A stretch of DNA of 64,000 nucleotides from Perna viridis. Taxonomy: Eukaryota. The stretch's first letter is position 1. Every line of letters begins with the position of its first letter. A model generated the notes under the pieces. It did not search any database. It was not told the origin of the DNA and saw nothing but the letters and a program-made list of their open reading frames with translations. A program made the translations under genes and the position numbers. This document shows, piece by piece, positions 336 to 59,117 of this stretch. The stretch spans positions 24,304,001 through 24,368,000 of the forward strand of contig CM074513.1 of NCBI GenBank assembly GCA_037379345.1, read 5' to 3'.

Positions 336-811
336 ATAATTGATAATTTGCCATACTACTGCCAAGATTCAACATGGTATTACCTCTACTACGGCTATAA
401 GCATCAAACTTTTCAATGATCTCCATATCATCATCATTCATACGAACATCACAAACCCGTTCCATCATTTCTACTGTCAGGGTGAAAGCTGGACCAGCTA
501 AAATCTTTCCCCATTCAGCCTCTTTCTCTGTGACATTATTACCTATGCATTTAATAAAGTTATTGAAAATTTGGCAGCTAGCACCAGGGGTCAGATCAGG
601 AGACATTTTCACATAGGTATCCATGCACTGGTACATCTTATCGAATTCTGTAGCATCACCAGCATAGGTTGGCAGGGGTAGAGTCACTGCAGGGCATGAT
701 GGGTAATTTGTTCTATGATACAGTTCAAAGGTTGCCTTGCCAAGCATAAATATAATGTTGTTACAACCTCTTGTGTGTTGTTCAAAGCAGGTCTTGACAC
801 TGTTCATGTGG
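336..811 (-). CDS. Exon 72 (2-1), closes block D2; alternative in-phase donor at 384
   Basis: [21 protein letters not shown]..; gene probably continues beyond the left edge. Confidence 0.8.
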
Positions 812-9800: not shown

Positions 9801-12800
9801 CCACTTTAGAATTTTCAAAGGTTACACCTATATAAATATCATGACTGTTATACTATTTCATAATAAATGTTAGGAAAAAATTATGCTTAAGAAAAAAAAA
9901 TCATTGTAGAGGTGAAATTATGATTTTGTGGCATTTGGTATGATTTCGAACATTTTATTTTTCATAAATAACAAAATGAAAAGATTTTAAATTTCGCTGT
10001 TGCAAAAAAATAAGATATAACAATTATTATTTTATTATCCTTAGAGTTACCATTGATAAAGTAATAAATTGTGTCAAGGTATCATATATTAACATAAAAA
10101 CCTGTCTAAACTAAACCCTGAAGAAACTGACAACCTGTCTAACTATTTATCTTCTTAAGTCTTTTAAAATTATTTTCAATGAAATTTTAACCTGTAAATA
10201 ACAAAACACCTCCCTAAAGTGGATACAAATTTCAGTTCCTATTGAGGTTGGTTTAGACAAGTTTCAATGTATTTTAAACCTTCTGGCCATAGTTTTTCCT
10301 TATTATTAGTTTTATTAACCCTCCTACCCTAAATTTGTCAAACTGGGAAACCAATAAAATAGAAAATGTTGATTTTGTTGTTGTTGATTATTTCTCCTCC
10401 AACCCAGTGTTTTTCATGCAGAAAAAAACAAAATAATAATGATTCTAATAAAAGATAATTTCTGCATTTAAGAATCTGAATTTATACTATATTTGATGTA
10501 GTTAGTTGTTGTACATCAGTTTTTAATTTCAAACTGTGTCAAAAAAAAGAATAAGTGTTAGAATTGTTACATTGTAAGATAATCTCCTTGTGAAATAAAC
10601 AAAAAAATATTTTTTATCTTGATAAGGTTGGTACTGAAAAAAAATTAACAGCAGTTCAATTTTTTTCTCGACCTCTTCTGTTTGAGTTCTATAAAAGAAA
10701 ATAAAAGAAAATAAAAGATTTGTAAAACTAATATAATAATAACTATGGCCAAATGTAAGAAATGTCTTATTACCTTCCATCATAGACCATTTATATTTGT
10801 TACACATGTTACCAGAACAGAACTGGACATTTTCTCCAAAGGTAGAGCCATACAATGGATACATACATCCTTTCTTTATCATTGTATTGTTCCTGATCAA
10901 TGTGAAACAACCCTGAAAGTGGAGTAATATACATTAACACTACCTTCAAACTACAATCATAGCTGTTGTAATACTGTAAATTGAGAAATCACTACATGTA
11001 CATGTATTAGGTACTGCAATTTTGTTACTTTAGCTGAAAATGTGATATCAATTTTTGCAGTTTTGCTTCTATTTCAGTGTTAAAAATTATATTATGCTTA
11101 TGTTACTGCAGTGACAGAAACACTACAATAATATTTGATCTCACAGTAATCATAAATAGAATAAATATAATACATGGTCATTGGTATGTACAGAATTTTA
11201 CCTTATAAAGATTTCTTAGTGAATGCAGTATTACAAAATCATAAAATGGCAAAAGATAATTAGTTAGCTGAATGCTGAAAACTTTCAAAGGTACAGGGAA
11301 ATGGAAAATAAAAGAGATCCACAAAGGTATCTAAAACAAACGAACAGAGAAAAGGGGTAACCTAAATAGAAAATAAAAGGGATCTAAGGGTCCACAAAGG
11401 TATATAAAACAAACAACAGAGAAAAGGGGTAACCTAAATAGAAAATAAAAGGGATCCAAGAGTCAACAAAGGTATATAGAAACAATATCTTTGATATGAA
11501 GTCTTGATGGTCCTTTGTAATTAATTCTCTCATGATATGAGACAGCCCTTACCTGTCCAGGTTGACAGTGCTCTGGTGTTTGTCTGTTGCACTCTATATT
11601 GTCTTTCTCCCCATCACAAGAATAACATTTCTGGCCTGAAGTCAGAAAAATAGGTAAGTTATGTGCCAAATTTTATATTTTACCGTGTGTGCATTTACAC
11701 AGATTTCAATCATCACAGAGAAAACATACAATATGATGTTAAGTTGACTTTGTATCAAACGATGAACTTTACCTAAGTTAGAAAAATCTAGCACACTATA
11801 TCTGTTACCTGTCTTGGATGACAAAAAAAAATTCACAAAAGTTTCACACTACAATTACCAGGTCAATGACATTAGATTGAGTGTTTGCATCCAGATGGCT
11901 CTGGTACTGATAAGATTGCTCCATAGTATGAGTCCTTCTCCATGCTGATGGCTCAAACAGTGCTCTCTTGATTAATATGAGAATTTAACTGATTCTACAC
12001 ATTTTCCCCATATTACTTCTATACAATGATCCATCTTAGATACACAAGATATAACTTACCCATACAGACAGCAGAAACAGCATGAGACAGCGCTTGAAGT
12101 GTTGCATTCATCAGTGCCCTTTTACTCTGTGGTAGAATTGGGAGGTAGGCCATGGCACCATGCATCACCTCCACCATACTAGAACATGTTGTCAATTTCT
12201 TTACACCCATGACCTGCATCAGCCCTTCTATCATCTCAGTATTGTTTGGCTTCATGTGAAGGTCGAAGTATCCCATGGCTGCCTTAGTTAGTTCGCCTTT
12301 CATTCTATCCTTCATTGATTCTACCAATCCACGGTTCAAGTAGTCCCAGCGGTTGAAGTATTCTTTTTCTTCATCCTTCATCAGGAATGTATTGATCTGG
12401 TCCATCATCTGGCCAATCTTCACGTAGGCAAGTGTGTGATAGGCTGAAGTCACAATTTCATGTCCGTCTCCCATTCCAACAATAATTTTCATGACATCAT
12501 TCATTACCATATTGACAGAAATACCCATCTTCTTCATTCTTTCTTCTCCAACCTTTTCAGTCATTTCCTTCATGATATAGTTAGAAACATCCATCAAGTC
12601 CTTCATGGTTGGATCATTGTCAAGGTTCAGCATGGCAATTCTAACCCCCTTAACAAACTGTTCATCTCTTTCTACCAGACCCTCATTCATCATCACATAT
12701 TTAACCATATGCAACAAATCCATCATTAATGAATCACCTGTCACTCTCATATCTGACATTTTTTCCATCTGGTCGTCCATGTCTGATTTCCTATCCATTT

Positions 12801-15800
12801 CTTCTGTGGAGTTCTTCCTTTCTGTCATTTTATCACTCGAGTTCTTCATCTCATCCATTCTTTCCTCCATAGCCATGTTTTTGGCTTTGCCCATCAGCTC
12901 CTCCACAGAACATTTTCTTTCAGACATATCCATCATTTTATGGAGGTTGGTGATTGTTTTCAAGTACTCATCAGGAACACTGACCATGTTGATTGGTTTC
13001 ATCCAGGCAGACATGTCCATTGTCATGTTGTGTTTCTTTGCCATCATCAGCATAGTATGCATTGATCCCAATTTGTGCATGTTAGCTTCCAATGTAAGAA
13101 TGGAACCTAAGTTCCACAGGACAGTGGTAAACATGGCTTGGGGAGGTAGTTTCTGACACATTCTGGCTAATGGTCCCATGCCAGGCTGAAGGAAGTTATG
13201 GAGCATGTACCAGACCTTTTCTGGACAATGTTCCACCTTCTTTCTTATACATTCCCCAGCAATCATTAAGTATCTGAAAAAATATTCAAAGGCAACTATC
13301 ATTGCACAGATTACTTGATACGAAACAGTATGATAACTAACTTAAGAGATACAAGATGAGACTTACAAAGTACATAAGTACATGTGAGGAGCATTAGCAA
13401 GAATAATTATACCATGTTCAAGCATTCAATAATGACAACAGGAGCAATTCAACTAATATTTTTTGGTCACACTACTCTTATTCACTATAAAGATTTCACA
13501 AAGTTGATTTATGATATTTAAACCTATCACTTCAAGTATCATTGAGGCATTGCCCATAGGCCATCTACATAACCATAGGCATTGCCCATTTACAGAACCA
13601 TAAGTATTGCCCATAGGCCATCTACATAACCATAGGCACTACCCATCTACAGTACCATTGGCATTACCCATGCCCATAGGTGATCTACAGTACCATAGGC
13701 ATTGCCCATTGACAATCTTCATGACTAAAGCCAATGCCCATGGAACACCAACATTAACATATGCTCTGCTTTTAAGTAACTGAGGTAAGAGTTAGATTTG
13801 GAAACATTAATTAATTGTCCAATATGAAAAGGCCAGGCATAACAGACATAAACCAGATTGTACTCACTGGCAGAGGTTTCCAGTAGATGAGGTAGGCAGC
13901 TGTAAGGAAGCCATTATTTTACTGTGCAGGGGCATCAGGCATGACTCAACCTCCTTGACCTTGCATTTTGTCTCCACTTCACATTCATCCTTTACAACTG
14001 TTGGACACATGTCACCAACATATCCCATGACTTCATGGAAGCGAGCATGCAGATGGTGTTTGGTAAAGAAATCACATCCCTGTGATGTAAGCATACCACA
14101 TCTCACAGCTAAAGCATATTTCCTGCAAATAAAAATGCAATTGATTTCACCAATAGTAGCATTTACCATGAGGGTGTTAACAAGAGAATCGGGCTACATT
14201 ATTGATAAAATAATCAAAGTGAACGGATCATGCCATTAGAAAAGACAGAATTACATCACTAGAAGAACACTACATTAAGACTTCAATATTTGGAGACCAA
14301 TATGAATAACAAAAATGGCCAGAAATCATCCAAAGTTGAGATCCCTTTTTACTACCCTTCATTCAAATGGTATACCAGGCAATTAGCACATAATAGAACC
14401 ATTAACATTTAATTGATTTTTTTTTGGTGATTTAAAAACATCTTAAGTTTGAAAGCAGTAGTATTGACAAAAAAACACATGCAATTGCTACCTACCAGAA
14501 AATTATTATCAAAATTGAGTGCTATACACTTTCAGTTACCCAAATTTATCTGGTGCATTGCAAAATCTGATTTCATTGAATCTTTAGCAACTTACAGGCA
14601 GATTCTACTTTTAGTTGCCCATGGTGACATAAGTTCCTTCTGGACAGCCTCGGTACATTCCAGGGCAACAGATGGATGACAATATCCTTGACCTTCAAGA
14701 GAATCAGTTTCAATACAATCCTTCATGTCTGTAGACATATGATGTATCTTCTTAAACATTCCAATGACTTCCATGGAATCAGCAGATGCAAGATCTAAAG
14801 GATTGTCTGCTGATCTTACAAATTTGAGAACCTGATTCATTTTATTGACCTGTCCAAAAATATTATTGACCTCTTCCATCATCTTTTTCTTCATTTCTTC
14901 ACGGTCACGTCTCTGGGCCATATCAAAAGCATTTCTCTTTTCACGCTGTGAATCTTCCATTTCTCTGTCTCTGTTGTCTTGACCAAGATATTTCATCATC
15001 CACATGTATGTAGCACATGATTTACGAAGCAAACCCTCCATTTCAGAAAAACTGTGGTATACCACCATCTGTGTTGTGTTACCGCAGGAAGCCAGATTTG
15101 GCCGTATACAGTCCATAAGATAAGTGCTATCCTCCCTGAAAAAGTAAAGTCAATATTTTTTTCAGAAATTTACTCTTGAATTAATTAACACTTAATAAAC
15201 ATGATGTGGACATTTCATAAAGAAGCTACCTTTGAATTTAGACTTAAGTCATAATAAAAGAATAAAAATCTTCTTATACACTTCTAATAATCACATATGA
15301 ATCTTTAGGGATTCTGGTACAAGTTTACCTCAAAATAAAAACTGGAATTTAAAGCAAGCAATAGTACAAAATTTCAACAACTGAAAGCATGTAAATAATT
15401 CAGTATTTACAATGAATGACCTACCTACAGATTCTAGGAGCATACATTTCAAAGCTGGACACAACTTTCATCATACATTGATTTGCACGATACAAATTAC
15501 ACTTCATGTCACGTCCCATCATCATATCTCCACTTCTCATGTCATCTCCTTCCATATCTCCCCTTGTTCGGTCTTCTTCCATATCCTGGTCTCCTTCCAT
15601 ATCCTCTTTCTCCATATCTCCTTCCCTATCATCTCTGTCCATATCGTCCATGTCTCTGTCTCCATACATATTGTCTTCATCCATTTTTTTATCCATGCAA
15701 CCTTTGGATCCCATCATGTCTGCCCTCATGCTATCTTTCATCTCAGCTGCAAATACATGTAAAACAATGACATTTTATACAAATGATTATTTGTTTTGTT

Positions 15801-18800
15801 TGTTTATCTTCTCTCATTGAAGTATTTTTTTAAACACAAATGTTTACATATACATATACTACTAAAGAAGGAAAATAAAAAAAAATTAAATTCAAACAGT
15901 GGTTACCTACATATAAGTCTGAAACACTATAAAACACAGGAGTTAAAATTTGTTGCCAAATTGATCTAAAGTATTTGTTTACAATTTAAAGGAGTATGTA
16001 CAGAAAATACCAAAATCAGACCCAAAAACTAAAGTATTTCATTGAATATGTGCCTTTCGTGGAAAACAAAGTTTCATTGCTTTTAATGCATGTGTTGCAC
16101 TAAACTTGTTGAGGTAAATAACACAAAATTTGAAAAACTAGCGTAACTATATTATTAATAGCTTATTTCATGAGACATTTTTATGTAGAAAATATAGAGA
16201 GCATTTATTGAACTCTTTGATATTTCTACAAAAATAGCCTTCTGTACCATTACAACTCCTGACAAAAGATTTGTTGTTCATAGCTTGCGCTGTATATTTT
16301 TGGATTAAAAAACTACCTATAATCGTCACATTTTTGTGAAAATTCTTCAAAAACTGTGTAGAGTTTTGTGCCCTCCTTATGACAAAATTATCACGCAACA
16401 GCATGTATTTTCTGTATATTAGTATTCAGATAGTATTTTACCTTTAAAATAGGCAAACAGTAAATTTCAAAAAGTAAGTTGAAACTTTGGTTAGTGAATT
16501 TACCCCTTTGTACATGTACAAAAAAATACATATGCAAAACATGAAAAATCATGAATTTGATACTAATAGAACAATAACTTTAATTACAGAGTTTCCCATG
16601 AAACTCATTGTAAAGTCTTGTGAAGCTCAATGAAGTATGTTCTCCTGTGTTAAATATAGACAAAATGTAACAAACCCATCATCTTATGTTCCTTAGCAAC
16701 AGTTGAAGTCATGAACATGGCAAGTTTCATGTACATCTCTCTAGCCTTATCCTTGGGAGTCATGTCCGTCATGTTGAGTTTACATCGGTCACCAATCAGC
16801 GCCATATTCAGAACAAACATTGTTCTCAGCTGAGACTTGAATGAAGCTGAGCAGGTCATGGAAGACTTTTCCAAACACTGGTGGATCTTCATTACATCAC
16901 TGTAAGAGAGAAAAATGTTGATCCAGATAACAGTATCATTTTTTTTCTTCCTTTTTTGCATAGTAACTATTAAGAAAGTAAAACATCTTCATGGTTTTTT
17001 GAACTTGTAATAAATTCTATAAATAAAAAATAAGAAGTGTTTTTTGTTAGTGTGTCTGTCTCTCTTGTTTATTTTGTTTTTTTTTTATTATTATTGAAGT
17101 TTTCATTCATATAGCCAGTAAAATTTTTGTAATTTGCAAAGATAAAAAAAAAATAACACATCGTCAATTAATTTTCAATCTTACTTTTTATACCATAGAA
17201 ATAACATAAAGTAAAAAAATAATGAAATAAGAAAAAGTTACAGAAAGCCTATAATAGTGATCATGTGATGGTACTTTTATAGTAAACAGATATCAATATA
17301 TTGGTAATACATGTAGATGAAAACAGTAGGCTGTGCATTATGGAATTTCACCCATTTTTTTGTCAACACTTACTGGTATTCTTTTTAACAACAATGCATG
17401 TATTTCCATAGTAGCATTTTATCCTATTAGACACTGCCCTTTGTCATTGATAATAGAAAAATTGTATTACCTGCACATATCTTTATCGTTCTGCATGAGG
17501 ATACGTGGAGCTACAGCTTTAACTGTCATCAGTTTAATACAGTTGACAGCAGTGTCCTGCATACAGTCAGCTGGTTCTGTAATCACAAGTTATTGTAGAT
17601 TACTAAAGAAGCTTCCAAACTAAAGTTGTAAATCATCACAATGGTCAAATTTCATAGAACAGACAAAGTGAGCAGAAAAATAACTGAATTTTATTACTTT
17701 TCACGAAATATTATCAACAAATGAATAATTAGTTTGGACAAATTTATTAAACCATATCACCTGACTAATAGAAAATAATAATTATGGCAGTTTAATGTCT
17801 AGACATTTATTTTTTGCAGTAAAACAAATATAAGTATGGCAGATTAGTGTCTAGACATTTATTTTTTTGCAGTACCCCATTGATAGTGGATTATTAGCAA
17901 GATGTACAATGTTTTCAAGAACTCAATTTCAGAGATTTATTAGTAAATGTATATCTACAAAATATTGAAGATTAGAACATAACATATAATACTGGATTAT
18001 GCAAAATTAAGGTGTTGGATTGAACATGTGTTGTCTAGTAAGCAAACAATATTACAAATTGGCAATATTTTTTCTTCAGTAAAATGAGAATAGGTATGGT
18101 GAATATGTCAAAGAGACAACAACCCCACTGGGATAAAAATGTCAGTCCAAGACCACCCATTCCTCATACTACAGGGCAGGCTGCAGCTGGCCCAAAACAT
18201 CATTATGCACAGGTACAGCAAAAAGAGTAGCCCTATATACTCAAGTAACATAAAAATAAGCTAAAGGTGAAAACGAAACAAGACATATAGAGGCCAGAAA
18301 TTCCTGAATTGGGACAGGCGCAAAAAATGTGGCGGGTGAAAGTGCTTTGGTGTGATCACAACCCTCCGCAAGTAGCATATATTAAAATAATTTTGTGAAG
18401 ATGACAGAGTATCCTTTTCAAGTCTGAAATCTGTGAAATAGCTCACCTGGTTTTGCTTGTGTTATTTGTGCCAATATTGAAGTGTCTGAAAATAAAAGAC
18501 ATGCAAAGATTACATAAACTTTTTCTTCTACTCAATGGAGAATAACAGTTTACTGACCTTACATAACATAACATAAAAACTTCATCAAAATAGTTATTTT
18601 TGTGGTAAAAGAGAGACAATTCTAATGTATTTAACTGAAAACAAAATTTATTTTATGTTTATATTGTTAAATATGTGCATACATGATTTTACTATGCCAA
18701 CAAAAAATCAGAAATTGACAAAATCAGAAGTAAATATACAGTAAAAAATTAAACATAATGAAAAAAATCCATACTTGAAAAATCCAATTTCCAATTTAAA

Positions 18801-21800
18801 TTGGAAAAAATCATGTCTGAAGGTAGGTTATATCCATAAATGATTATTCTCTAGAAGGAGTATGTAATAAGATAAACAAGTACATGAAACTTATGGTGCT
18901 TTCACATGTTCAAATAATGCACACTGAATTAGCGTCTTTACAAAGACTTAATCTTTCATCACAAGAGAAGTATACTGATTTTTAACCATAAAACCAAAGT
19001 TCATAGAAAAATAATCTATCAACAAGTATAACATACTGGCAGTACATTCTTTCTTTACAAATTCTACCATGGCTTGGTGAGTTTCGTTCATCTGTCCAAC
19101 AACCCAATCTATTGCTGGTTCCATTCCTGCATTTCTAAAGGCATTGCCCATACACTGTGTCATGGTAGAGGTCACTTCACAAATATCAACAAAACCATAC
19201 TTTGGTGAGGTTAATGCAGCATCCATATTAGTGCTGAGATCTGAGAAACATTGGGTGACAGCTTTGACCTCGTCCGTTGGAGTTGGATTTCTGGCTTGAT
19301 AGATATTAGCTGGACATGACATTAAGTAGTCATTTGTGGCCTTGTTGAGGACAAAGTTCACAAGATATAGTTCTAAACTGTTACATCCCTCCATTATATT
19401 AGCATGCTCTGCAGTTACACCAGCTACATATCTGGCAAAATAAATTATGAAAGTTAAGGGGGTAGACCTAGGGTAAGGTACATAACTCATGAAATCAGTG
19501 ATATGTTTGTATCATATTCAATTTCACCAAAGCCTCTCAAGCTTCCATTTGAAGTAGAAGAAAATGAATCCAAGTTCATTAGATGCTTACATAAGGTTGA
19601 TGTAAAATGCTGAATACAAACGTTCCAATGATTTTTAAGAGTTGTGTCCCTTACCCTAGGTCTACCTCCTTAAGATAATCATTTCATTTGTTTTCCTATT
19701 TTTTTTGTTTTTAGTTAAATGCTTATCTAATGTCTGACAACTAAGCCATGACTATTTAAAATGTAGATAAACAACACAAATACTTCATATTTTAAAACAT
19801 AATGCTCCAACTCCTGTGGCAATAACTACTTTCTTAAATTCCTCATCTTAATACATAAAAAACTTCATTCAGCACTATGAACCTTTAGAAATTGTCAAGT
19901 CTAAATTTTTTTTCTAAAGTAATGCAATCCCCCCAAAATAACAAGCAATGCATCTTCTGTAAATCGCAATCAGTTTAGCATCAGCAAGATTTCATTTCAA
20001 TAAAATGGGTCAATTTAGACAGAAATTGCAGAATTTCGCTAAACAGGAAATAGATGTCCAACAGGCCTCAAATCAAATCCCACAATATGGGACTTGTACC
20101 TAATGCTAGATACCTAATATCAAGGGGCTGTGATTAATATTTGTAAAGATAAAGTGTTGTGAAATAATTTCCCTACCTGCCATTTAAAATGGCCAATACA
20201 ATAGTAAAAATGCAAAGTCATATGTTAACCAAGCTATTTCACTTACCCACAAACTTCATTCAATGTCTTCCCTTCCTCTCTCATTCTGGTTATGTTCATA
20301 GCAATTTCTTTCACACCATATACCAACTGAGGTAAGTTACACTTCTTGATCTGACAGGGTGGCATCACCGTAGCAACATAGGCTTGAACATTGGTACAGT
20401 TAACATCCTTAGACCTCAGTCCAGGGTACATAAACTGATATAGCTGTTCCATTACATGTGGGTGGCAGTTTTTAGATTTTTCAACAAAGCATTTTGTCAC
20501 TGTCATCACCTCACTATTAATAGAAAGAAAGTGTTGACACATGAACTTAGTTCAGAATGATTAAAAAACACTCTTTGTATATTTCCATTTTAGGTAGCAG
20601 GTTAAATACTTGCAGTATTTCTGTTTCTAAAATATTGTACATAGTTGTACATATATTGTTCACCAAAATACTTGTTTTCTTTCTTCTAAAATCTTCTAGT
20701 AAATTTTTGGCCCTGCATTGTTTATTAATGCACAATTTATTTCTTTGTGATATCAAGTTCAAGATCAAATTCAAAATTTTCAACAACAAATTGATGAATG
20801 ACACATGTTTTAATGTGATTTTACATTGCCTTAATCTAATTCAGTCAATATCAGATATTTGCCCACTATTTCCAAGTTGTATGCTGCCCTTGTAGCATGA
20901 TACTTGGTTATAAATGAATGATTTCGCCCAAATGTCAATGTCAGTCATGAATATGTCTTCATGTCGTTATTTGACTTGAAAAAGTGTCGTCATTCTGTTA
21001 CTATGGATTTTATTACTTTGGTTGTCAGTGCCTTTCAGATGTTTACTTGAAGGTGGATTTACACTTAATGACATTTTGGTGACCTCTGTTAGTATTTACT
21101 GTTTTTATAAGGATAATAGTACGGTGCATTTTTTGTGTTGTTCCATTTTCTATGTATTAATAAAACTATGTAGCAAAAGATCAAAAAAAGAAAAAATAAA
21201 CAAATTTTTACAAAATTCGGGCATGTCAATTGCATAGAATTTTATTTCTCAAAATTAGAGAAGTTTTCTTCCAGACTACTAAGTGTTATAAATTGATGGT
21301 GCTGAGAGAATGATACTCACCTGCAATAGTTAGGGTCAGCATTAACCATTTCATAAGTCTTGACATAATAATTATCAATACAGGCCCCAATACCAACGGT
21401 ATCACAATCCTTGGTAACATCTCTAGCTTCTAACTGTGACAGGGCACAGATGTACTGAGACTGTTCTGGACACCAATCATTTGTCGCATTACCCAATAAA
21501 TACATGGTCTTCCTGAAGTAAGTCATTTCTGATGCGGAACAGTTAAACATATGTTGCTCTAGACATTCCAGTGTGCCATCTAATTTTCTGTAAATAAATA
21601 TTTGGTTTTTAGATTTTTCATTTATTCCATAGGAACTGGACTGCATACAAGTACAAAGGTTGCTGGTTAAGTGTCAATAACCTTACATAAATGTACTTTT
21701 TGAAAGGAAAACATTTCCAAGAATAAAACTGGCTTTACTACACTTAATCAATTCACACATTAAAAGAGATTCTCACTCCCACATATCCTGTTGTTACAGA

Positions 21801-39800: not shown

Positions 39801-42800
39801 ATGGTAATGGCAATTATTTCATTGCCATTGATCAAGCAGTTTAAAACTGAAGGACCAATAAACAATTAATCTGAAGTTTACTGCCTTTTTGAAAAACATA
39901 GAGACTATGGCCCTTAATCCCCTTTCAAAGTGATCCTTGTAGCAGGTAACTTTTGCAAACCTTATCATGTACAATGCATATTAAAAGTAAAATATCAGTC
40001 AAATTTATTTCTTTTGTAACAATTACAATAAATGCTAATTATGGTTATTGAACTAAATTCTTTTGTTTCATTAATCCAAACTTTCTCTGGTCAATAAAAT
40101 AATTAACTGAGCAAAAGAAAAAATTTCTGTCAGTTTACAGAAACTTGACTGTATTACTGTCATTACTTACTGACAAAGTTTAGTGACATCACTCCTGGTG
40201 TTGAGTGGAACATAACATTCCACAAGAGCCTTTTGTGTGTAGCACATTTCTGGTGGAGGAGTACACCTTTCCATGGTGTCTGTCAGTATCTTCTGGACAG
40301 GACATTGGTCAGCTACCATACTGGCTACATCACTTCCAAGCTGCATGGATATTAGAATTTCTTTGTAATCATTGCAGCCACTGGTCAGCTTGTGTAGGCA
40401 ACACATCACCTTTTCTGCAGCACTACAACAAATTTTATCATAATTAGACTATTATAAAATAAGTACTGCTGACCGATTCGTCTGGAAACAACCAGACCAA
40501 TTACATATGAAATGAATTAAAGAGTTTTTTTCAGGTATATTTTAGATATAATAGTTATTTCAATGTCCTTACTCACAGACTGGTTTCATTCCATAGAAAA
40601 CAGCTGTTGAAAGTTTGCTAGCAATATCAGCTTCTTTGACACACTGCATCACCATGGTAACATTACATGACTGGGACCTGGTAATATTCATTTCCATCTG
40701 TTTCTTCATCATGTCTTCTTGATGACAGTAGGTACCAGCAATTTTCTCCATCATATATGAATTAACACCAGCACGTGCCAACTGAGCAGGGGTCATGTAC
40801 ATCATCATTTCAGAAAATCTCCCCATGGCCATCCTCATTTGTCTACAAAAAAGTATTGAAAGTTGATCCTGACAATCTTAAAGATTACATAATTCCTTGC
40901 TAGTTGTTTAAAATGCCATTTCGACAATATACCTGAGTTGTCGGCACAGGATGTTCTATTGACAAGAACTCCTGCTTCATTTGACTCCAGACATAATCTA
41001 ATCCTCTCACTGGACAGGCGGTAGTAATGTTACAGCACCTATGGCAGAGAGAGGGATGGTTGTGTTGTTCTGATCATTAGACAACTGTGTTAAATATTGT
41101 TTTGAGACTTTGAACCAACTTGTCGTGATGTGGTTAATGGAAATTAGAACCTATGCTCTCATTTTTTCCTTCTGATTAGATTCATCTAATTCTCAGGAGA
41201 AGTAAAACAATTTTTTTAAGATATTTTAATGTGATTAGAAACTGAATGATTAGACTTGGGTTATTAAAGGGAGAAGACTGTGGCAGAGTGAGGAATAGTT
41301 TGTTAGTGAAAACAATCTGCAGATCTGTGATAAAATCTGTGATGGATCACTATAAAAAGACATCAAACATAAAACAGTTCATTAAAACAAAATGACATGT
41401 AAACAATTGAAAAAATTATGTAAATGAAATATAACAATAATGCAACAACATCTAGAAGTACTGTGATCACAAAGAACATCTAGAAGTACTGTGATCACAA
41501 AGAACATCTAGAAGTACTGTGATCACAAAGAACATCTAGAAGTACTGTGATCACAAAGAACATCTAAAAGTACTGTGATCACAAAGAACATCTAGAAGTA
41601 CTGTGATCACAAAGAACATCTAGAAGTACTGTGATCACAAAGAGATTACCCCCACTTCAAATGCAGTTGAATGTATAATTCGTAAGATCAACTTTTTCTC
41701 TTTACAACCAACAAACAGACATTATATTGCTTTATGCACACTTACATATGATGCCCAATCTTCCTACAATGTTCATCAAAATCCCTAGAGTGGTTCAGGA
41801 GGAGTTACACTTACAATGTTTAAACATGTAAAACCAATAATTCTGATTATCTCTCTTTGAAGTCTCTTGCCAATAACTATATTCCTTCATGCACATCTAC
41901 ATATGACGCCCAACATTCATATAGTTTCGTCAAAATCCATTGAGGTGTTTAGTGGGAGTTTTGCTTACAGGAAATGTGGACAGACGGACGGACGGACGGA
42001 CGAACTGACGTACAGACAGAGACAGACAGACAGCATGACAGGGTGGTTCCTATATACCCCCCAAACAAAAAAAATTAAATACAGAAATCTTAAAGCAACA
42101 TCATCCTTTAAAACGTAAAATCAGCAATTTTATCCTTCACCTAAAGCTGTTGTCATAGAAATTCATGTCAAAAGATAAAATGATATTTTCGTTTTAAATT
42201 TCTTTTTATCAGCACTTTTTACAAATGGAGAACTACATATATATTGTTTATGCAGAGGTGAAACAGAATTAAACTTACGGACAAAGAGTTTCCTTGGAAA
42301 CCATGGGATTCATGAATATCATGGAAACAGGAAGTATGGCTTCTACAGCTGTAACATTCTCCAATAACCCAAGAACTGGATTTACTTGACCTTTAGGGCA
42401 AACATCCTGAACCATAACCTTTAGAGCATATATAGCCTTGTGAAGATCAGGATCATCATCATGGTTACAGTTGATGGTATGGTTAACAGCACACATCAAA
42501 GATGGCATGATACCTCTGAAATTGGGAATTACAATTAGGTCAAATATTGACATATATGTATAAACTGTGACCTAAGTTAAAAGAAATAATAAAAAAATAT
42601 ATGTAACTTCATCATATGACCACTTTTTCTCCAACTTACATGTACATGTAATTGTAAGCATGGAACTACAGATTCAAGATATACTGTACTAGGTACTAGT
42701 AGTTCATTTATGTTGATTAATATCTCCATTTTTGAAATTCCCATATCATAAATGACATTCCTTTCTTGTTATTTTGACATTTACTTCAAAATAACAGCTT

Positions 42801-57800: not shown

Positions 57801-59117
57801 AATTTAATTCATTGGTAATTTTTGGTTGATATAAAGGCCATAAAAAATAATATGTCTGTTTATGATTACATTCTAAACAAAAATAGGGTTGGTTGGTTGG
57901 CATATTTCTTTTATTTCTTATGCACAGGTTTAACCTTTACTTTATTTAAATCATCAGTCCTGGAGTAAAATTTTGTGGTCCACTCCATGTTTATCATAAG
58001 TATATTATTATATATATATATATATTTCTTATGGCCTAATTTTAATTCATAGTATGGCCTTACAACAAAAAAAGGTCTTTGACCTTACTCTACATTAGTT
58101 CTGTTCTTAAAAAAATCACAGGATGTTAGCAATGTTGGAAGTTACAGAAATCTTGGATATTCATACCTAATTCAACAACAGTTTTTAACTCACATTAAAC
58201 CTATGTTAATCTAGCTCCTTTGGTGCTTATTAAAAAAAAAGGAAGAGGTTCATCTAGTTATAAAATTGAGTCTGCAGAATCTTAATTCAAAGCATTTCTG
58301 TTGTACATGTTTCATATAGGAAAAAGAGTCCATTTTCAGTTGAAACTTTAGTTCAATGTCATACATTGTATACACAATATGTCTTACCCACAAAGAACAT
58401 GAGACTTTTGAACTGAAGCAACTGGTGATGCAAGAATATATTTTGCCCCACTGGAACATTCTTGAGCAACTGGAATGTTACATCTTGGCTTTTGGCAAGC
58501 CTCTTTATCCATCTGTGACAAAACTGCTGTTGTCATGGATACCATATTCTTAATCTGACTACTTTCGCACTGCTGTGTGGATATGGTGAGACATCTGTGT
58601 GTCTGTTTAGCTTGCCTGAAATTTATATCAAAACAGCTAATACTAATACATCTTTGCTATGGTCAGCAAAAGTAAGGGTTATGGTTTACATCTAAATACA
58701 TTTTCATTGGCATACATGTAGTTTCTTCCCTATTTTACACTGATACATCTTTTAATACCCCAACTATGAAACAAAGTTTGGGAATAAATAGCAATCAGCA
58801 TGATAGACCTTCATTAAAATGTACTGCCAAATAGGTCGGTACAAGTTCTAGAAATAGTTTTTTATACATATAACTTAATTATCAAAGTTTTTTCCATCTT
58901 TCATTCCATCACATTTGGAAAATTTCATGGAAACTTTATAGTAGAATTCAAATGTTGATCTGTTTTTAATGTTACTGTAAATAACAAAATAAATGTTCTC
59001 ACCGACAAGTGATAGCCATTGAAGTATCAGCAGCAACATATGCAAATCCTGTAATGCACTGTGCAACAGTATCCATATGACAATTTTTATCGTCATCTTC
59101 CTCAGATACTTGAAATC
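336..59117 (-). CDS. Giant multi-exon gene (72 exons in window, ~5,550 aa, partial at both ends): Met/Cys-rich, probably secreted protein with ~54 six-Cys helical repeats, 1 WAP and 2 Ly6/uPAR domains
   Basis: Manual splice tracing: all 72 exons are flanked by AG/GT, all 71 junction phases are compatible, and no junction creates a stop. Recurrent Cys pattern; summed exon length 16,647 nt. Confidence 0.88.
1396..1629 (-). CDS. Exon 71 (2-2)
   Basis: [20 protein letters not shown]. Confidence 0.87.
2074..2305. mobile_element. MITE family 1 (TA-flanked, TIR CCTGTTAACC..GGTTAACAGG)
   Basis: Perfect 13-bp inverted ends atacctgttaacc/ggttaacaggtat; related copies at ~9569-9830, 43804-44158, 53171-53472. 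Confidence 0.7.
2329..2562 (-). CDS. Exon 70 (2-2)
   Basis: [29 protein letters not shown]; paralog of exon 30. Confidence 0.87.
2851..2994. repeat. 37-bp minisatellite x~4
   Basis: tcaacatctgtaatacatcagttattgtttaattata, near-perfect tandem copies. Confidence 0.95.
3112..3320. mobile_element. MITE family 2 (TACTGT..ACAGTA termini)
   Basis: ~205 bp, shares internal sequence with 33274-33483 and 39577-39787; shorter relative at 6946-7120. Confidence 0.7.
3560..3793 (-). CDS. Exon 69 (2-2)
   Basis: [21 protein letters not shown]. Confidence 0.87.
4221..4329 (-). CDS. Exon 68 (1-2), opens block D2
   Basis: [36 protein letters not shown]; 109 nt like exons 9 and 34. Confidence 0.83.
4817..5172 (-). 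CDS. Exon 67 (2-1), closes block D1
   Basis: [33 protein letters not shown]. Confidence 0.85.
5190..5780 (+). repeat. Helentron/HINE-like element with three diverged ~179-bp internal tandem units
   Basis: tgacaaagtccatgtt-like motif at ~5400, ~5579, ~5760; 5' motif aactagaaaaaactgtgagc shared with ~3058, ~22768 and ~41447. Confidence 0.55.
6304..6705 (-). CDS. Exon 66 (2-2)
   Basis: [27 protein letters not shown]. Confidence 0.84.
7190..7426 (-). CDS. Exon 65 (2-2)
   Basis: [21 protein letters not shown]. Confidence 0.87.
7975..8160. repeat. Local ~115-bp direct duplication
   Basis: ggtgggttcttct..accatgaatca..tggactggtacttaaa present twice. Confidence 0.75.
8185..8463 (-). CDS. Exon 64 (2-2)
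   Basis: [23 protein letters not shown]. Confidence 0.87.
8893..9111 (-). CDS. Exon 63 (2-2)
   Basis: [28 protein letters not shown]; 219 nt like exon 43. Confidence 0.87.
9449..9539 (-). CDS. Exon 62 (1-2), opens block D1
   Basis: [31 protein letters not shown]. Confidence 0.8.
10774..10912 (-). CDS. Exon 61 (0-1): Ly6/uPAR domain 2, C-half
   Basis: [26 protein letters not shown]. Confidence 0.86.
11290..11485. repeat. ~75-bp imperfect tandem repeat x~2.5
   Basis: gaaaataaaagggatc..acaaaggtat..aaac repeated. Confidence 0.75.
11553..11635 (-). CDS. Exon 60 (1-0): Ly6/uPAR domain 2, N-half
   Basis: [28 protein letters not shown]. Confidence 0.86.
12060..13273 (-). CDS. Exon 59 (2-1), 1214 nt, ~15% Met, closes block C3
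   Basis: [24 protein letters not shown]; about 60 Met in ~405 aa (hand count). Confidence 0.9.
13545..13742. repeat. Degenerate minisatellite (ccataggcattgcccat..taca)
   Basis: About 7 imperfect copies. Confidence 0.75.
13868..14122 (-). CDS. Exon 58 (2-2)
   Basis: [20 protein letters not shown]. Confidence 0.88.
14596..15135 (-). CDS. Exon 57 (2-2), 540 nt with charged Met-rich insert
   Basis: [27 protein letters not shown]. Confidence 0.88.
15425..15746 (-). CDS. Exon 56 (1-2), Asp/Met/Gly low-complexity linker plus half module
   Basis: ..[40 protein letters not shown]. Confidence 0.86.
16676..16899 (-). CDS. Exon 55 (2-1)
   Basis: [21 protein letters not shown]. Confidence 0.84.
17471..17576 (-). 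CDS. Exon 54 (1-2), opens block C3
   Basis: [35 protein letters not shown]. Confidence 0.84.
18082..18370 (+). repeat. Dispersed repeat (core gaatatgtcaaagagacaac); inverted copy ~46810-46985, decayed copy ~30900-30990
   Basis: Shared core motif on opposite strands. Confidence 0.55.
18447..18485 (-). CDS. Exon 53, 39-nt microexon (1-1)
   Basis: ttttcag|[12 protein letters not shown]|gtgagc. Confidence 0.7.
19037..19431 (-). CDS. Exon 52 (2-1), closes block C2
   Basis: [15 protein letters not shown]. Confidence 0.87.
19454..19673. mobile_element. TTAA-flanked MITE (Kolobok-like, GG..CC termini)
   Basis: TTAA|GGGGGTAGACCTAGGGTAAGG ... CCTTACCCTAGGTCTACCTCC|TTAA, ~40-bp imperfect TIR. Confidence 0.8.
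20247..20513 (-). CDS. Exon 51 (2-2)
   Basis: [21 protein letters not shown]. Confidence 0.87.
21321..21587 (-). CDS. Exon 50 (2-2)
   Basis: [20 protein letters not shown]. Confidence 0.88.
22524..22751 (-). CDS. Exon 49 (2-2)
   Basis: [25 protein letters not shown]; missed by ORF track. Confidence 0.86.
23281..23485 (-). CDS. Exon 48 (1-2), opens block C2
   Basis: [42 protein letters not shown]. Confidence 0.86.
24574..24971 (-). CDS. Exon 47 (2-1), closes block C1
   Basis: [25 protein letters not shown]. Confidence 0.87.
25875..26031 (-). CDS. Exon 46 (1-2)
   Basis: [36 protein letters not shown]; missed by ORF track. Confidence 0.83.
26737..26936 (-). CDS. Exon 45 (2-1)
   Basis: [21 protein letters not shown]. 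Confidence 0.85.
27261..27524 (-). CDS. Exon 44 (2-2)
   Basis: [13 protein letters not shown]. Confidence 0.87.
27744..27962 (-). CDS. Exon 43 (2-2)
   Basis: [28 protein letters not shown]; 219 nt. Confidence 0.87.
28341..28428 (-). CDS. Exon 42 (1-2), opens block C1
   Basis: [30 protein letters not shown]. Confidence 0.83.
28849..29005 (-). CDS. Exon 41 (0-1): Ly6/uPAR domain 1, C-half
   Basis: [35 protein letters not shown] (KGC and C-x4-CN motifs). Confidence 0.86.
29669..29790. mobile_element. Small hairpin MITE with ~30-bp TIRs
   Basis: ggcgtcaaattcacaaaaagtcttaagagt / acacttacgactttttgtgaatttgatgcc. Confidence 0.75.
29834..29925 (-). CDS. Exon 40 (1-0): Ly6/uPAR three-finger domain 1, N-half
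   Basis: [30 protein letters not shown]. Confidence 0.85.
30192..30356. mobile_element. MITE with 15-bp TIR atcaatagacccttt
   Basis: Perfect inverted termini; internal gagcatgctc palindrome twice. Confidence 0.7.
30392..30694 (-). CDS. Exon 39 (1-1), closes block B3
   Basis: [29 protein letters not shown]; AAG acceptor. Confidence 0.84.
31125..31342 (-). CDS. Exon 38 (2-1)
   Basis: [22 protein letters not shown]. Confidence 0.84.
31989..32186 (-). CDS. Exon 37 (2-2)
   Basis: [20 protein letters not shown]. Confidence 0.87.
32812..33075 (-). CDS. Exon 36 (2-2)
   Basis: [20 protein letters not shown]. Confidence 0.88.
33274..33483. mobile_element. MITE family 2 copy
   Basis: tactgtgaaagtact..ggtatccac..tttcaca. 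Confidence 0.7.
33564..33851 (-). CDS. Exon 35 (2-2)
   Basis: [26 protein letters not shown]; paralog of exon 17. Confidence 0.88.
34095..34203 (-). CDS. Exon 34 (1-2), opens block B3
   Basis: [36 protein letters not shown]. Confidence 0.85.
34928..35017 (-). CDS. Exon 33 linker (1-1)
   Basis: tttgtag|[30 protein letters not shown]|gtaact; 90 nt. Confidence 0.72.
35176..35552 (-). CDS. Exon 32 (2-1), closes block B2
   Basis: [22 protein letters not shown]. Confidence 0.86.
35679..35781. repeat. Nested inverted repeat (hairpin), probably TE-derived
   Basis: agaaatctcagacacca / tggtgtctgagattttct with inner arms ggatttcaa / ttgaaatct. Confidence 0.65.
36203..36430 (-). CDS. Exon 31 (2-2)
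   Basis: [21 protein letters not shown]. Confidence 0.87.
36880..37240 (+). mobile_element. 5'-truncated LINE 3' end (ORF C-terminus plus 3' UTR)
   Basis: Reads [25 protein letters not shown] (36882-36959), resembling bivalve CR1-type LINE ORF tails (from memory); 3' part recurs inverted at 53277-53419. Confidence 0.65.
37400..37678 (-). CDS. Exon 30 (2-2)
   Basis: [28 protein letters not shown]. Confidence 0.88.
37916..38167 (-). CDS. Exon 29 (2-2)
   Basis: [20 protein letters not shown]. Confidence 0.88.
38569..38704 (-). CDS. Exon 28 (1-2), opens block B2
   Basis: [37 protein letters not shown]; paralog of exons 9, 48, 68. Confidence 0.86.
39070..39428 (-). CDS. Exon 27 (2-1), closes block B1
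   Basis: [21 protein letters not shown]. Confidence 0.87.
39577..39787. mobile_element. MITE family 2 copy
   Basis: tactgtgaaagtact..agtacttcacagta. Confidence 0.75.
40171..40422 (-). CDS. Exon 26 (2-2)
   Basis: [29 protein letters not shown]; paralog of exon 5. Confidence 0.87.
40573..40842 (-). CDS. Exon 25 (2-2)
   Basis: [17 protein letters not shown]; paralog of exon 4. Confidence 0.87.
41447..41642. repeat. 28-bp minisatellite x7
   Basis: aacatctagaagtactgtgatcacaaag; one mismatch across seven copies. Confidence 0.95.
41447..42070 (+). mobile_element. Helentron/HINE-like non-autonomous element
   Basis: 5' motif, two ~160-bp internal units, (GACG/CAGA)n microsatellite at ~41978-42033, then ttcctatataccccc. 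Confidence 0.6.
42279..42515 (-). CDS. Exon 24 (2-2)
   Basis: [23 protein letters not shown]; paralog of exon 3. Confidence 0.88.
42889..43113 (-). CDS. Exon 23 (2-2)
   Basis: [21 protein letters not shown]; paralog of exon 2. Confidence 0.88.
43323..43407 (-). CDS. Exon 22 (1-2), opens block B1
   Basis: [28 protein letters not shown]; paralog of exon 1. Confidence 0.83.
43646..43666 (-). CDS. Exon 21, 21-nt microexon (1-1)
   Basis: cttttacag|EMEKPSH|gtgagt with pyrimidine tract. Confidence 0.6.
43804..44158. mobile_element. MITE family 1 copy with internal 33-bp tandem array (43964-44118, ~4.5 copies)
   Basis: ta|cctgttaac..ggttaatagg|ta; unit tctcccacatgagacagtgccaatgggggagag. Confidence 0.75.
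44294..44430. mobile_element. MITE family 3 (cagtaaaacctgtctaa..ttagacag); relative at ~10096-10270
   Basis: Imperfect TIRs in two copies. Confidence 0.5.
44592..44716 (-). CDS. Exon 20 (2-1), closes short block A3
   Basis: [22 protein letters not shown]. Confidence 0.82.
45152..45251 (-). CDS. Exon 19 (1-2)
   Basis: [33 protein letters not shown]. Confidence 0.82.
45980..46134 (-). CDS. Exon 18 (2-1)
   Basis: [31 protein letters not shown]. Confidence 0.86.
47140..47376 (-). CDS. Exon 17 (2-2)
   Basis: [25 protein letters not shown]; missed by ORF track. Confidence 0.86.
47657..47771 (-). CDS. Exon 16 (1-2), opens block A3
   Basis: [39 protein letters not shown]. Confidence 0.85.
48419..48454 (-). 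CDS. Exon 15, 36-nt microexon (1-1)
   Basis: tttacag|[12 protein letters not shown]|gtaagt. Confidence 0.72.
48588..48675. repeat. ~31-bp tandem repeat x3
   Basis: aaaaaa..gctcaacagttttcc. Confidence 0.8.
49080..49265 (-). CDS. Exon 14 (1-1), closes block A2
   Basis: [27 protein letters not shown]. Confidence 0.85.
49648..49847 (-). CDS. Exon 13 (2-1)
   Basis: [25 protein letters not shown]. Confidence 0.86.
50277..50561 (-). CDS. Exon 12 (2-2), acidic tract
   Basis: [33 protein letters not shown]; AAG acceptor. Confidence 0.82.
51015..51299 (-). CDS. Exon 11 (2-2)
   Basis: [21 protein letters not shown]; 285 nt. Confidence 0.88.
51687..51935 (-). CDS. Exon 10 (2-2)
   Basis: [21 protein letters not shown]; 249 nt. 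Confidence 0.86.
52201..52309 (-). CDS. Exon 9 (1-2), opens block A2
   Basis: [36 protein letters not shown]. Confidence 0.85.
52921..52959 (-). CDS. Exon 8, 39-nt microexon (1-1)
   Basis: tttttag|[13 protein letters not shown]|gtaagt. Confidence 0.7.
53277..53419 (-). mobile_element. Short LINE 3' tail nested in a family-1 MITE
   Basis: Near-identical reverse complement of ~37095-37238; atgaga on both sides. Confidence 0.75.
54025..54165 (-). CDS. Exon 7 (1-1): WAP / four-disulfide-core domain
   Basis: [42 protein letters not shown], canonical 8-Cys WAP pattern. Confidence 0.92.
54494..54885 (-). CDS. Exon 6 (2-1), closes block A1
   Basis: [24 protein letters not shown]; 392 nt. Confidence 0.88.
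55205..55444 (-). CDS. Exon 5 (2-2)
   Basis: [20 protein letters not shown]; 240 nt. Confidence 0.88.
56017..56280 (-). CDS. Exon 4 (2-2), poly-Asp linker
   Basis: [24 protein letters not shown]; 264 nt. Confidence 0.88.
56951..57322. repeat. ~95-bp direct repeat pair (56951-57042, 57228-57322)
   Basis: aagtctt..ctgata..gattgtct.tgaagatcaaca..gtgttacaaatttaca present twice. Confidence 0.7.
57484..57708 (-). CDS. Exon 3 (2-2)
   Basis: [23 protein letters not shown]; 225 nt. Confidence 0.88.
58388..58615 (-). CDS. Exon 2 (2-2)
   Basis: [38 protein letters not shown]; 228 nt; missed by ORF track. Confidence 0.88.
59003..59117 (-). CDS. Exon 1 in window (phase 1-2), opens block A1
   Basis: tttcag|..[38 protein letters not shown]|gtgag; this frame is not the one in the ORF track. 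Confidence 0.85.

What the first reader, a model, noticed from the sequence alone, without database searches (positions are those of the whole stretch)
336..59117. Three-tier duplication hierarchy: module, ~5-module block, ~15-19 kb three-block super-repeat
Blocks open with a short 1-2 exon and continue with 2-2 exons. Most close with a long exon holding a Cys-reduced module that lacks the usual mid-domain intron (block A3 is truncated). The 11 blocks group as A (59117-43646), B (43407-28849), C (28428-10774) and partial D (9539-336). Position-specific motifs recur: KETVCP/KETLCP (ex 3/24), [18 protein letters not shown] (5/26), SY..R....F.P (9/28/48), FGKY (29/49), [18 protein letters not shown] (30/70), and equal 219-nt exons 43/63. 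I saw no intron similarity between super-repeats, which suggests ancient duplication.
Basis: seen in the sequence. Interest (0 to 1): 0.7.

Follow-up and report, generated by a model that had tools for sequence, protein, structure and literature searches.

The report
Giant bivalve membrane protein, ancient super-repeats
This window holds most of one spliced 99-exon gene for a predicted 7,200-residue bivalve cell-surface protein made of 63 small cysteine-rich modules in four ancient super-repeats that scallops share, and it likely works as a long, sheddable surface coat whose role is untested.

Summary
The window carries 72 exons of one minus-strand gene. With its flanks it gives a 99-exon ORF of 7,200 aa: signal peptide, 63 six-cysteine-type helical modules, one WAP, two Ly6 domains, a VWD-EGF tail, a membrane helix and a 76-aa tail. 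Spliced contigs confirm many joints. A 7,397-aa Argopecten protein aligns along 98 of the 99 exons. Modules cluster by super-repeat position (83 same-position pairs, mean Z 1.74; null 0.04±0.12; 0 of 2000), not by adjacency (-0.13). Units pair as AB|CD and group by letter across species, so they predate the split from scallops. Paralogues keep the module order (15 of 15 neighbours in one). Corrections: the 'truncated A3' includes B's lead module; D is complete beyond the window; the block tier shows mainly in exon phases and the terminal module. One module is predicted as a three-helix bundle (pLDDT 92.8) with only weak RGM-N/neuritin/DUF19 likeness. The tail is VWDE-like, and the orthologues are 7-9% Met. 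Likely a furin-cleavable surface scaffold; function untested.

The parts
336..59117 (-). 72 coding exons (aa 131-5698) of one 99-exon, 7,200-aa gene; 55 of its 63 Cys modules lie wholly here. Outside the window (G000:C3 position = 24304000 + extended window coordinate): predicted signal-peptide exon 70414-70261 and lead module A0 65887-65075 above; block D3 and modules E1, E2 at -1471 to -10984, then a beta-rich segment, VWD (no GDPH), RKKR site, EGF, membrane helix, 76-aa tail and stop at -11509 to -22211 below
45980..59117 (-). Super-repeat A, in-window part: blocks A1, A2 and a two-module A3. Its lead module lies upstream of the window
54025..54165 (-). WAP four-disulfide core on a 1-1 exon after block A1; scallops carry a WAP after block B1 instead
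   Evidence: PF00095 E 2.2e-13
44592..45251 (-).
   Evidence: groups with A0, FastTree 0.977; P0010 blast
28849..45251 (-). Super-repeat B: lead module, blocks B1, B2, B3, Ly6 (1,574 aa)
   Evidence: joint 43407|43646 spliced in X18 and X4
28849..29925 (-). Ly6/three-finger-like domain on a 1-0 plus 0-1 exon pair closing B
   Evidence: Cys pattern in sequence; DUF753 E 2.8e-4, under cut-off; class HMM hits in homologues
10774..28428 (-). Super-repeat C: blocks C1, C2, C3, Ly6 (1,870 aa)
12060..13273 (-). 1,214-nt exon with a long Met-rich insertion before the terminal module C3T; also present in scallops and Pinctada
   Evidence: 82 of 348, 92 of 355 and 91 of 346 aligned residues identical
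10774..11635 (-). Second Ly6/three-finger-like domain closing C
   Evidence: UPAR_LY6_2 E 1.1e-5, under cut-off
336..9539 (-). Super-repeat D, blocks D1 and D2; block D3 follows below the window

Best explanation
The window is the middle of one spliced 99-exon gene for a predicted 7,200-aa (about 800 kDa) type I membrane protein, whose 63 modules, predicted to be disulfide-stapled three-helix bundles, likely form a long surface stalk that would be cut near its base and act as a protective coat or scaffold on epithelia. Shown: the gene structure, the four super-repeats, their AB|CD pairing and their presence in scallops and Pinctada. Inferred history: a phase-2-split six-Cys module was multiplied into blocks ending in an intron-less module without Cys1/Cys5. 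Three blocks plus Ly6 became a unit, and that unit was copied in tandem. An AB-type and a CD-type unit already existed before this gene parted from its paralogues, and each was later doubled, with local losses (end of A3, WAP, Ly6). Inferred function: the VWD-EGF-TM base anchors the stalk, a conserved R-x-K-R site lets a furin-type protease sever it, and each module position has kept its own surface since before the split from scallops. The Met excess of the orthologues would serve as an oxidant or metal sink or for cohesion. Odds: about 0.9 for architecture and history, about 0.4 for the coat function.
For: One ORF with canonical splice sites. Spliced contigs cross the A/B region directly. 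By length they also run past the B/C border (519 and 1,007 nt beyond 27524, against 307 nt left in C) and down to the 3' end (8,572 nt against 7,601 coding nt). Argopecten P0053 (7,397 aa) aligns to 98 of 99 exons and Pecten P0002 collinearly at 24% over 6,999 columns. Position test: 38 of 61 best hits at the same position, null 3.3±2.3; it also holds on Argopecten alone (20 of 61). AB|CD has UFBoot 100, and both alternatives are rejected (AU p 0.0002, 0.006). Paralogues not used in training keep the order: 15 of 15, 10 of 13, 10 of 17, and 5 of 10 in Lottia. Single-module model: three helices, pLDDT 92.8. Cys1/Cys5 and Cys2/Cys4 are lost together (phi 0.91, 0.66). RKKR/RRKR in all four species examined, one strong membrane helix, 91 N-glycosylation sequons. 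Met is 7.1-9.4% in five orthologue records and 9.0-9.1% in this model's repeat region, against 1.3-3.8% in twelve other homologues, and 12.3% in linkers against 7.9% in modules. A digestive-gland contig whose blast label is the Pecten orthologue fell 11.9-fold after domoic acid injection (PMC8150855 Table 4, passages seen).
Against: No function was tested. Tissue is unknown for this species because run labels are coded. There is no mucin-type PTS region, so the stalk would be unlike known membrane mucins. Strong position-specific conservation fits ligand binding as well as a spacer. With this species' sequence alone the best-hit count (12 of 61) does not exceed the largest null value (13), though the mean-Z test still passes (0.83 against 0.01±0.11). 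Only 41 of 63 positions were monophyletic across species in the single-module tree. Module order is weak or not significant in 6 of 10 paralogues (p 0.02 to 1; gastropods and a nemertean). X2 and X18 may be one data set. Cleavage at RKKR and the disulfide pairing are inferred.
Confidence: 0.6

Rival explanations
1. It is a giant endocytic or scavenger receptor: the position-specific modules, WAP and Ly6 bind cargo or microbes, and the tail drives uptake in digestive cells, working like megalin with other building blocks.
For: NPAY in both scallop tails, FDNLGY in this species, NLAY in Plakobranchus (the meaning of NPxY is recalled). Positions are individually conserved. Paralogues add SUEL lectin, VWA and Kunitz domains between the same modules. 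Digestive-gland contig in Pecten.
Against: The window's own gene has no exact NPxY, and the Tubulanus and Capitella tails have none. Pfam scans of the homologues show no LDL-receptor-type domains. A conserved dibasic cut near the base fits shedding better.
Confidence: 0.25
2. It is a Met-rich insoluble matrix protein of shell, ligament or another secreted structure, released at the RKKR site.
For: Met 9.1% in the repeat region, high only in pteriomorph orthologues. Insoluble shell and ligament proteins of Pinctada commonly have Met-rich regions (PMC7591529, abstract and section 6 read).
Against: The proteins named in that section are 45-180 kDa where a size is given, and none is described with VWD, EGF or a membrane helix; their sequences were not compared. 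Here Met is spread through folded modules. The only expression lead is digestive gland. Homologues occur in an annelid and nemerteans.
Confidence: 0.15
3. It is an expanded RGM-like co-receptor: many RGM-N-type bundles in front of a VWD domain trap BMP/TGF-beta ligands.
For: RGM also joins a six-Cys helical domain to a GDPH-bearing domain (seen in the genome's own RGM). One Pinctada module passes the RGM_N cut-off (25.5 against 24.2 bits). Five of 10 PDB rows for the module profile are RGM chains, E 0.057-0.59.
Against: The genome has a separate true RGM gene with GDPH. Its RGM-N scores 3.6 bits on the module HMM, no better than shuffles with Cys fixed (385 of 1000 as high). 0 of 30 window exons hit RGM_N (these are half-modules in permuted order). 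GDPH is lost, and there is a membrane helix with a tail.
Confidence: 0.1
4. The blocks are several tandem genes, and the super-repeat is a pattern read into divergent Cys repeats.
For: Pecten and Pinctada annotations split the locus into at least 2 and 3 models. No single contig listed spans the whole gene.
Against: Spliced joint across the A/B region, contigs of 10.8-14.2 kb, one 7,397-aa Argopecten model, one membrane helix, and the permutation and tree tests.
Confidence: 0.03

Closest known systems
VWDE-like proteins of molluscs (VWD PF00094 + Vwde PF26129 + teneurin-type EGF PF23106)
   Same: The orthologues carry these three families. The tail of the Capitella homologue is nearest to a molluscan 'VWDE-like' cluster, score 0.93.
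   Different: About 6,300 aa of helical modules, WAP and Ly6 in front, one EGF, and a membrane helix with a tail. Vertebrate VWDE is described with repeated EGF-like domains and as a possible matrix glycoprotein (PMC7390686, passages seen).
Uncharacterised orthologues: Argopecten XP_069139833.1; Pecten LOC117338914 + LOC117338915; Pinctada FSP39_003616, FSP39_017472, FSP39_025455
   Same: Same module order, Ly6 positions, tail and Met excess.
   Different: About 20-35% identity in most exons; WAP after B1 instead of A1; the Pecten and Pinctada models are split. All are labelled uncharacterised or hypothetical.
RGM-N / neuritin (NRN1) / DUF19 / DUF1397 six-cysteine helical domains
   Same: Six-Cys spacing and a predicted three-helix fold. 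Weak hits to all four among 17 modules (5, 2, 1 and 1 members for DUF1397, NRN1, RGM_N, DUF19). UniRef names a Lottia homologue 'DUF19 domain-containing'. Atlas lead DUF19 0.84.
   Different: Only one module is seen to pass any of these cut-offs. The likeness to the genome's RGM-N is no more than Cys spacing. Those families are recalled as having one or few copies, not 63.
MUC4-type membrane mucins (recalled: PTS stalk, NIDO, AMOP, VWD with GDPH, EGF, TM)
   Same: Long ectodomain on a VWD-EGF-TM base with a cut near the base.
   Different: Folded helical stalk, no PTS region, no NIDO or AMOP hit in the homologues scanned, GDPH lost.
Titin/connectin super-repeats (search listing and abstract starts only; otherwise recalled)
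   Same: Domains are more like the same position in the next unit than like their neighbours.
   Different: Intracellular Ig/Fn3 rulers; unrelated sequence.

Membership tests
VWDE-like | VWD domain | tested here: met
   PF00094 in P0008 E 9.5e-10 and precomputed for P0002 and P0053; the model's tail exons align to them
VWDE-like | Vwde domain PF26129 | tested here: met
   Precomputed on the orthologues; name. Not scanned on the model itself
VWDE-like | EGF-like domain after the VWD | tested here: met
   One teneurin-type EGF
Vertebrate VWDE orthologues | Repeated EGF domains, secreted matrix protein | tested here: not met
   One EGF, then a membrane helix and a 76-aa tail
Vertebrate VWDE orthologues | Orthology in a VWD tree | not tested
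   No vertebrate sequences were fetched
RGM | RGM_N domain above cut-off | tested here: inconclusive
   One Pinctada module passes; 1 of 17 at E 0.021; 0 of 30 window exons; the genome's RGM-N does no better than Cys-fixed shuffles
RGM | Same fold as solved RGM-N | tested here: inconclusive
   The model is a three-helix bundle; top matches are generic bundles, Z up to 8.8, rmsd 2.3, 77 aligned
RGM | GDPH autocleavage motif | tested here: not met
   Replaced in the model, both scallops and Pinctada; kept in the Tubulanus and Batillaria homologues and in the genome's RGM
RGM | GPI anchor, single N domain (recalled) | tested here: not met
   Membrane helix plus cytoplasmic tail; 63 modules
RGM | Binds BMP and neogenin | not testable with these tools
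   Needs a binding assay
DUF19 / NRN1 / DUF1397 | Pfam cut-off | tested here: not met
   Best E 0.04, 0.003 and 0.00039, all under cut-off where bits are shown
DUF19 / NRN1 / DUF1397 | Six-Cys helical module | tested here: met
   Six Cys columns at 76-92% of 229 module rows; three helices
MUC4-type membrane mucin | PTS domain | tested here: not met
   No 40-aa window (step 20) above 45% P+T+S
MUC4-type membrane mucin | VWD-EGF-TM base | tested here: met
LDL-receptor family (megalin) | LDL-A repeats and YWTD propellers (recalled) | tested here: not met
   No such Pfam hit in 18 homologues or 27 window ORFs
LDL-receptor family (megalin) | NPxY in the tail | tested here: inconclusive
   Exact in 2 of 6 tails, NxxY in 2 more, absent in 2

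The most novel reading that the evidence does not exclude
An undescribed lophotrochozoan family of giant surface receptors built from RGM-N/neuritin-type bundles on a VWDE base. Each module position would have its own ligand, kept since before bivalves and gastropods parted. The pteriomorph member, with 63 modules and 7-9% methionine, would be an oxidant-buffering uptake receptor of the digestive gland: a functional counterpart of megalin made from unrelated parts.
Probability: 0.15. Interest if true: 0.8.

Novelty: new variant of a known kind. Interest (0 to 1): 0.52.

Why it matters
It defines an 800-kDa predicted surface protein that databases hold only as uncharacterised, often split, models, and a repeated domain that Pfam almost never calls. 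The super-repeat is datable: it is fixed one-to-one between this species and scallops, and the unit order survives in paralogues as far as Lottia. That makes it a clear extracellular case of how module, block and super-repeat expansions build giant proteins and then freeze. The lineage-specific rise to 7-9% methionine across a folded protein, against 1-4% in other homologues, is unusual and gives a direct test of methionine as an oxidant or metal sink at a bivalve epithelium. Super-repeats as such are a known phenomenon, and no function is shown.

Tried and rejected
Homologue search with the Met-rich exon alone found none (only 708-2,020 aa searched). A search with the Pinctada tail returned only itself. 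Self-blastp printed nothing. One candidate module (D1e) was dropped before all counts because it overlapped D1T. The fold of P0045 was poor (pLDDT 58.7) and its searches gave nothing clear. Fold searches with the good single-module model listed only generic bundles; RGM was not among the rows shown, which does not exclude it. The exon-based profile A1 found nothing in the PDB. One module against the genome's best TGF-beta-family match as a dimer (BMP2/4-like by eye) gave no answer (score 0.02, mark 0.34, alignment not used); this is no evidence either way. No RNA holder was listed on record; four runs with 0.00 of the words are no evidence of tissue specificity. Searches for paralogues in the own genome found only VWA domains or weak hits, and no convincing module exons outside the model in 244 kb. 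Earlier scan findings: none. Literature: nine searches found no description of this protein. The only accession hit is a table row in PMC8150855, whose supplement could not be read and may hold the contig sequence. Most subscription journals are not searched. Equinox is a different protein (TSP1+EGF, PMC9117669 passages). Lang 2016 (PMC4948705 passages) does not describe it in the passages seen. The oyster atlas preprint mentions 'Vwde' without identity (passages). The RGM structure paper was not held, so RGM's disulfide pairing was not checked.

Full report
What is there. The minus strand carries a long run of Cys- and Met-rich exons. After refinement the model has 99 exons over 92.6 kb and one open frame of 7,200 aa, about 807 kDa. 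Seventy-two exons lie in the window, which is G000:C3:24304001-24368000 of a 723-Mb genome. Three more lie above it (to extended coordinate 70414) and 24 below it (to -22211). The species was not determined; the nearest named relatives are pteriomorph bivalves. The order is: predicted signal peptide, 63 modules with one WAP and two Ly6-like domains among them, a beta-rich segment, VWD, an RKKR site, one EGF, a membrane helix at aa 7106-7124 and a 76-aa tail.

One transcript. Runs guessed to be RNA hold contigs that skip the introns at CT..AC on the plus strand, that is GT..AG on the gene's strand. This includes the mini-exons and the joint 43407|43646. In one search three contigs of 10.8, 13.4 and 14.2 kb lie across C in register with my exon lengths. 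The longest has 519 nt beyond 27524, where only 307 nt of C remain, and 8,572 nt 3' of 12059, against 7,601 coding nt predicted. A further contig has 3,163 nt below 42279, against 3,159 nt of model exons down to 31989. These three checks are by length only.

Relatives. A profile of 30 exons found 50 proteins among 1.84 billion representatives. Pecten XP_033756168.1 aligns collinearly, and Argopecten XP_069139833.1 (7,397 aa) aligns to 98 of 99 exons; the WAP exon is the exception. Pecten LOC117338915 matches the missing 5' piece, and three Pinctada models match pieces too. More distant homologues occur in gastropods, a freshwater mussel, nemerteans and Capitella. Several end in VWD, some with EGF and a membrane helix; some carry VWA, Kunitz or SUEL lectin inserts.

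I cut 63 modules (one overlapping candidate dropped), built small orthologue profiles, damped the Cys score and compared all pairs. Labels came from counting modules from each block start; only the lead modules A0/B0 were labelled with hindsight. For the 61 modules of A-D, 83 same-position pairs have mean Z 1.74 against 0.04±0.12 in 2,000 label shuffles, none as high. The best hit is at the same position for 38 of 61 (null 3.3, maximum 13). Neighbours score -0.13 and same-block pairs -0.22. With this species alone the mean-Z test passes (0.83) but the best-hit count (12) stays within the null range; with Argopecten alone it is 1.11 and 20. A post hoc shift of C1/D1 labels raises the figures to 2.03 and 42: C1 and D1 have one module fewer than A1 and B1.

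History. A-B is by far the closest pair (5.26), then C-D (1.75), the rest 1.16-1.44 (shifted labels). On 795 concatenated columns the units group by letter across four species, with AB|CD at UFBoot 100. AC|BD and AD|BC are rejected (AU p 0.0002, 0.006), as is grouping by species. A single doubling of an AB pair would give AC|BD, so the data favour separate doublings of two older units (inference). Paralogue units fall inside or outside the CD clade (support 97; one two-module unit left out), so the AB/CD difference is likely older than those gene duplications. Paralogues keep the template order in 15 of 15 (Ylistrum), 10 of 13 (Pecten), 10 of 17 (Sinanodonta, orthologue or paralogue not settled) and 5 of 10 (Lottia, p 0.0002) neighbour pairs; six others are weak or not significant. 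The WAP sits after block 1 of A here and after block 1 of B in scallops, as expected if each lineage kept a different copy. No position-equivalent introns are alike.

The block tier. It shows in exon phases and in the terminal module: 11 of 11 lack Cys1 and Cys5 and the phase-2 intron, and they resemble each other slightly across block types (Z 0.57). First slots score 0.26, inner slots about zero. Common descent of blocks 1-3 is therefore likely but is not traceable slot by slot.

The module. The pattern is C-x6-C-x10-30-C, intron, x7-C-x6-C-x~24-C. One orthologous module, folded with 16 relatives, gives three helices at pLDDT 92.8. Joint losses suggest pairs 1-5 and 2-4, leaving 3-6. Sequence leads point to RGM_N, neuritin, DUF19 and DUF1397, but they are weak. 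The genome's own RGM-N fits the module HMM no better than Cys-fixed shuffles, and fold searches were inconclusive. I file it as resembling that group, membership unproven.

How it likely works. A VWDE-like base anchors a chain of bundles that could reach roughly 200 nm if extended (my estimate from a recalled bundle length). GDPH is lost, but a dibasic site is kept in four species, so a furin-type cut is the likely release. There are 91 N-sequons. Met is 9.1% of the repeat region and 2.0% of the tail, high in the five orthologue records measured and low in twelve other homologues. The one expression lead is a Pecten digestive-gland contig labelled by blast with the orthologue, 11.9-fold down after domoic acid injection (PMC8150855 Table 4). 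I favour a sheddable protective or scaffolding coat (about 0.4) over an endocytic receptor (0.25; NPAY in scallop tails), a Met-rich matrix protein (0.15) and a BMP trap (0.1).

Novelty. Nine literature searches found no description. The tail is of a known kind and super-repeats are known from titin, so this is a new variant: an uncharacterised giant of a lophotrochozoan VWDE-like family with an unnamed repeat. Recalled and from no call: the meaning of NPxY and furin motifs, MUC4 and megalin architecture, RGM's GPI anchor and ligands, and bundle length.

Noticed in passing
window 19454-19673, 23760-24138, 53270-53420: Intronic high-copy repeats; contig depth reaches thousands to tens of thousands in RNA-like runs. 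A 143-bp stretch is 97% identical between the introns at 36431-37399 and 52960-54024, probably a SINE-like element.
   Followed up: no
window 13540-13714, 43964-44118; flank locus L002: Short tandem arrays in introns. A 27-nt array in the flank begins at a donor site and repeats the exon end.
   Followed up: no
G000:C3:36010257-36010481 (L041): The genome's true RGM gene: RGM-N and GDPH in one open frame, about 11.7 Mb from this locus.
   Followed up: partly
P0013 (Pecten LOC117338893) and P0003 (Ylistrum LOC132551440): Low-Met paralogues with the same module order but lectin, VWA, Kunitz or WAP inserts. P0013 lies on a contig of the same length as the Pecten orthologue's. No counterpart was found in this genome by two searches.
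   Followed up: partly
PMC8150855 Table 4: Two contigs labelled LOC117338873, a nearby Pecten locus number, fall 11.6- and 14.5-fold together with the orthologue-labelled contig; that gene was not identified.
   Followed up: no
window 15425-15746, 50277-50561, 56017-56280: Acidic Asp/Met-rich linkers inside exons, one with a trinucleotide run where an RNA contig breaks.
   Followed up: no
G000:C13:15.73-15.79 Mb (L022-L024): Tandem array of VWA-domain exons up to about 10 kb apart, three with identical scores.
   Followed up: no
flank locus L015 (extended coordinates about 99124-100182): Reverse-transcriptase-like fragments of a LINE-type element upstream of the gene, judged by eye.
   Followed up: no
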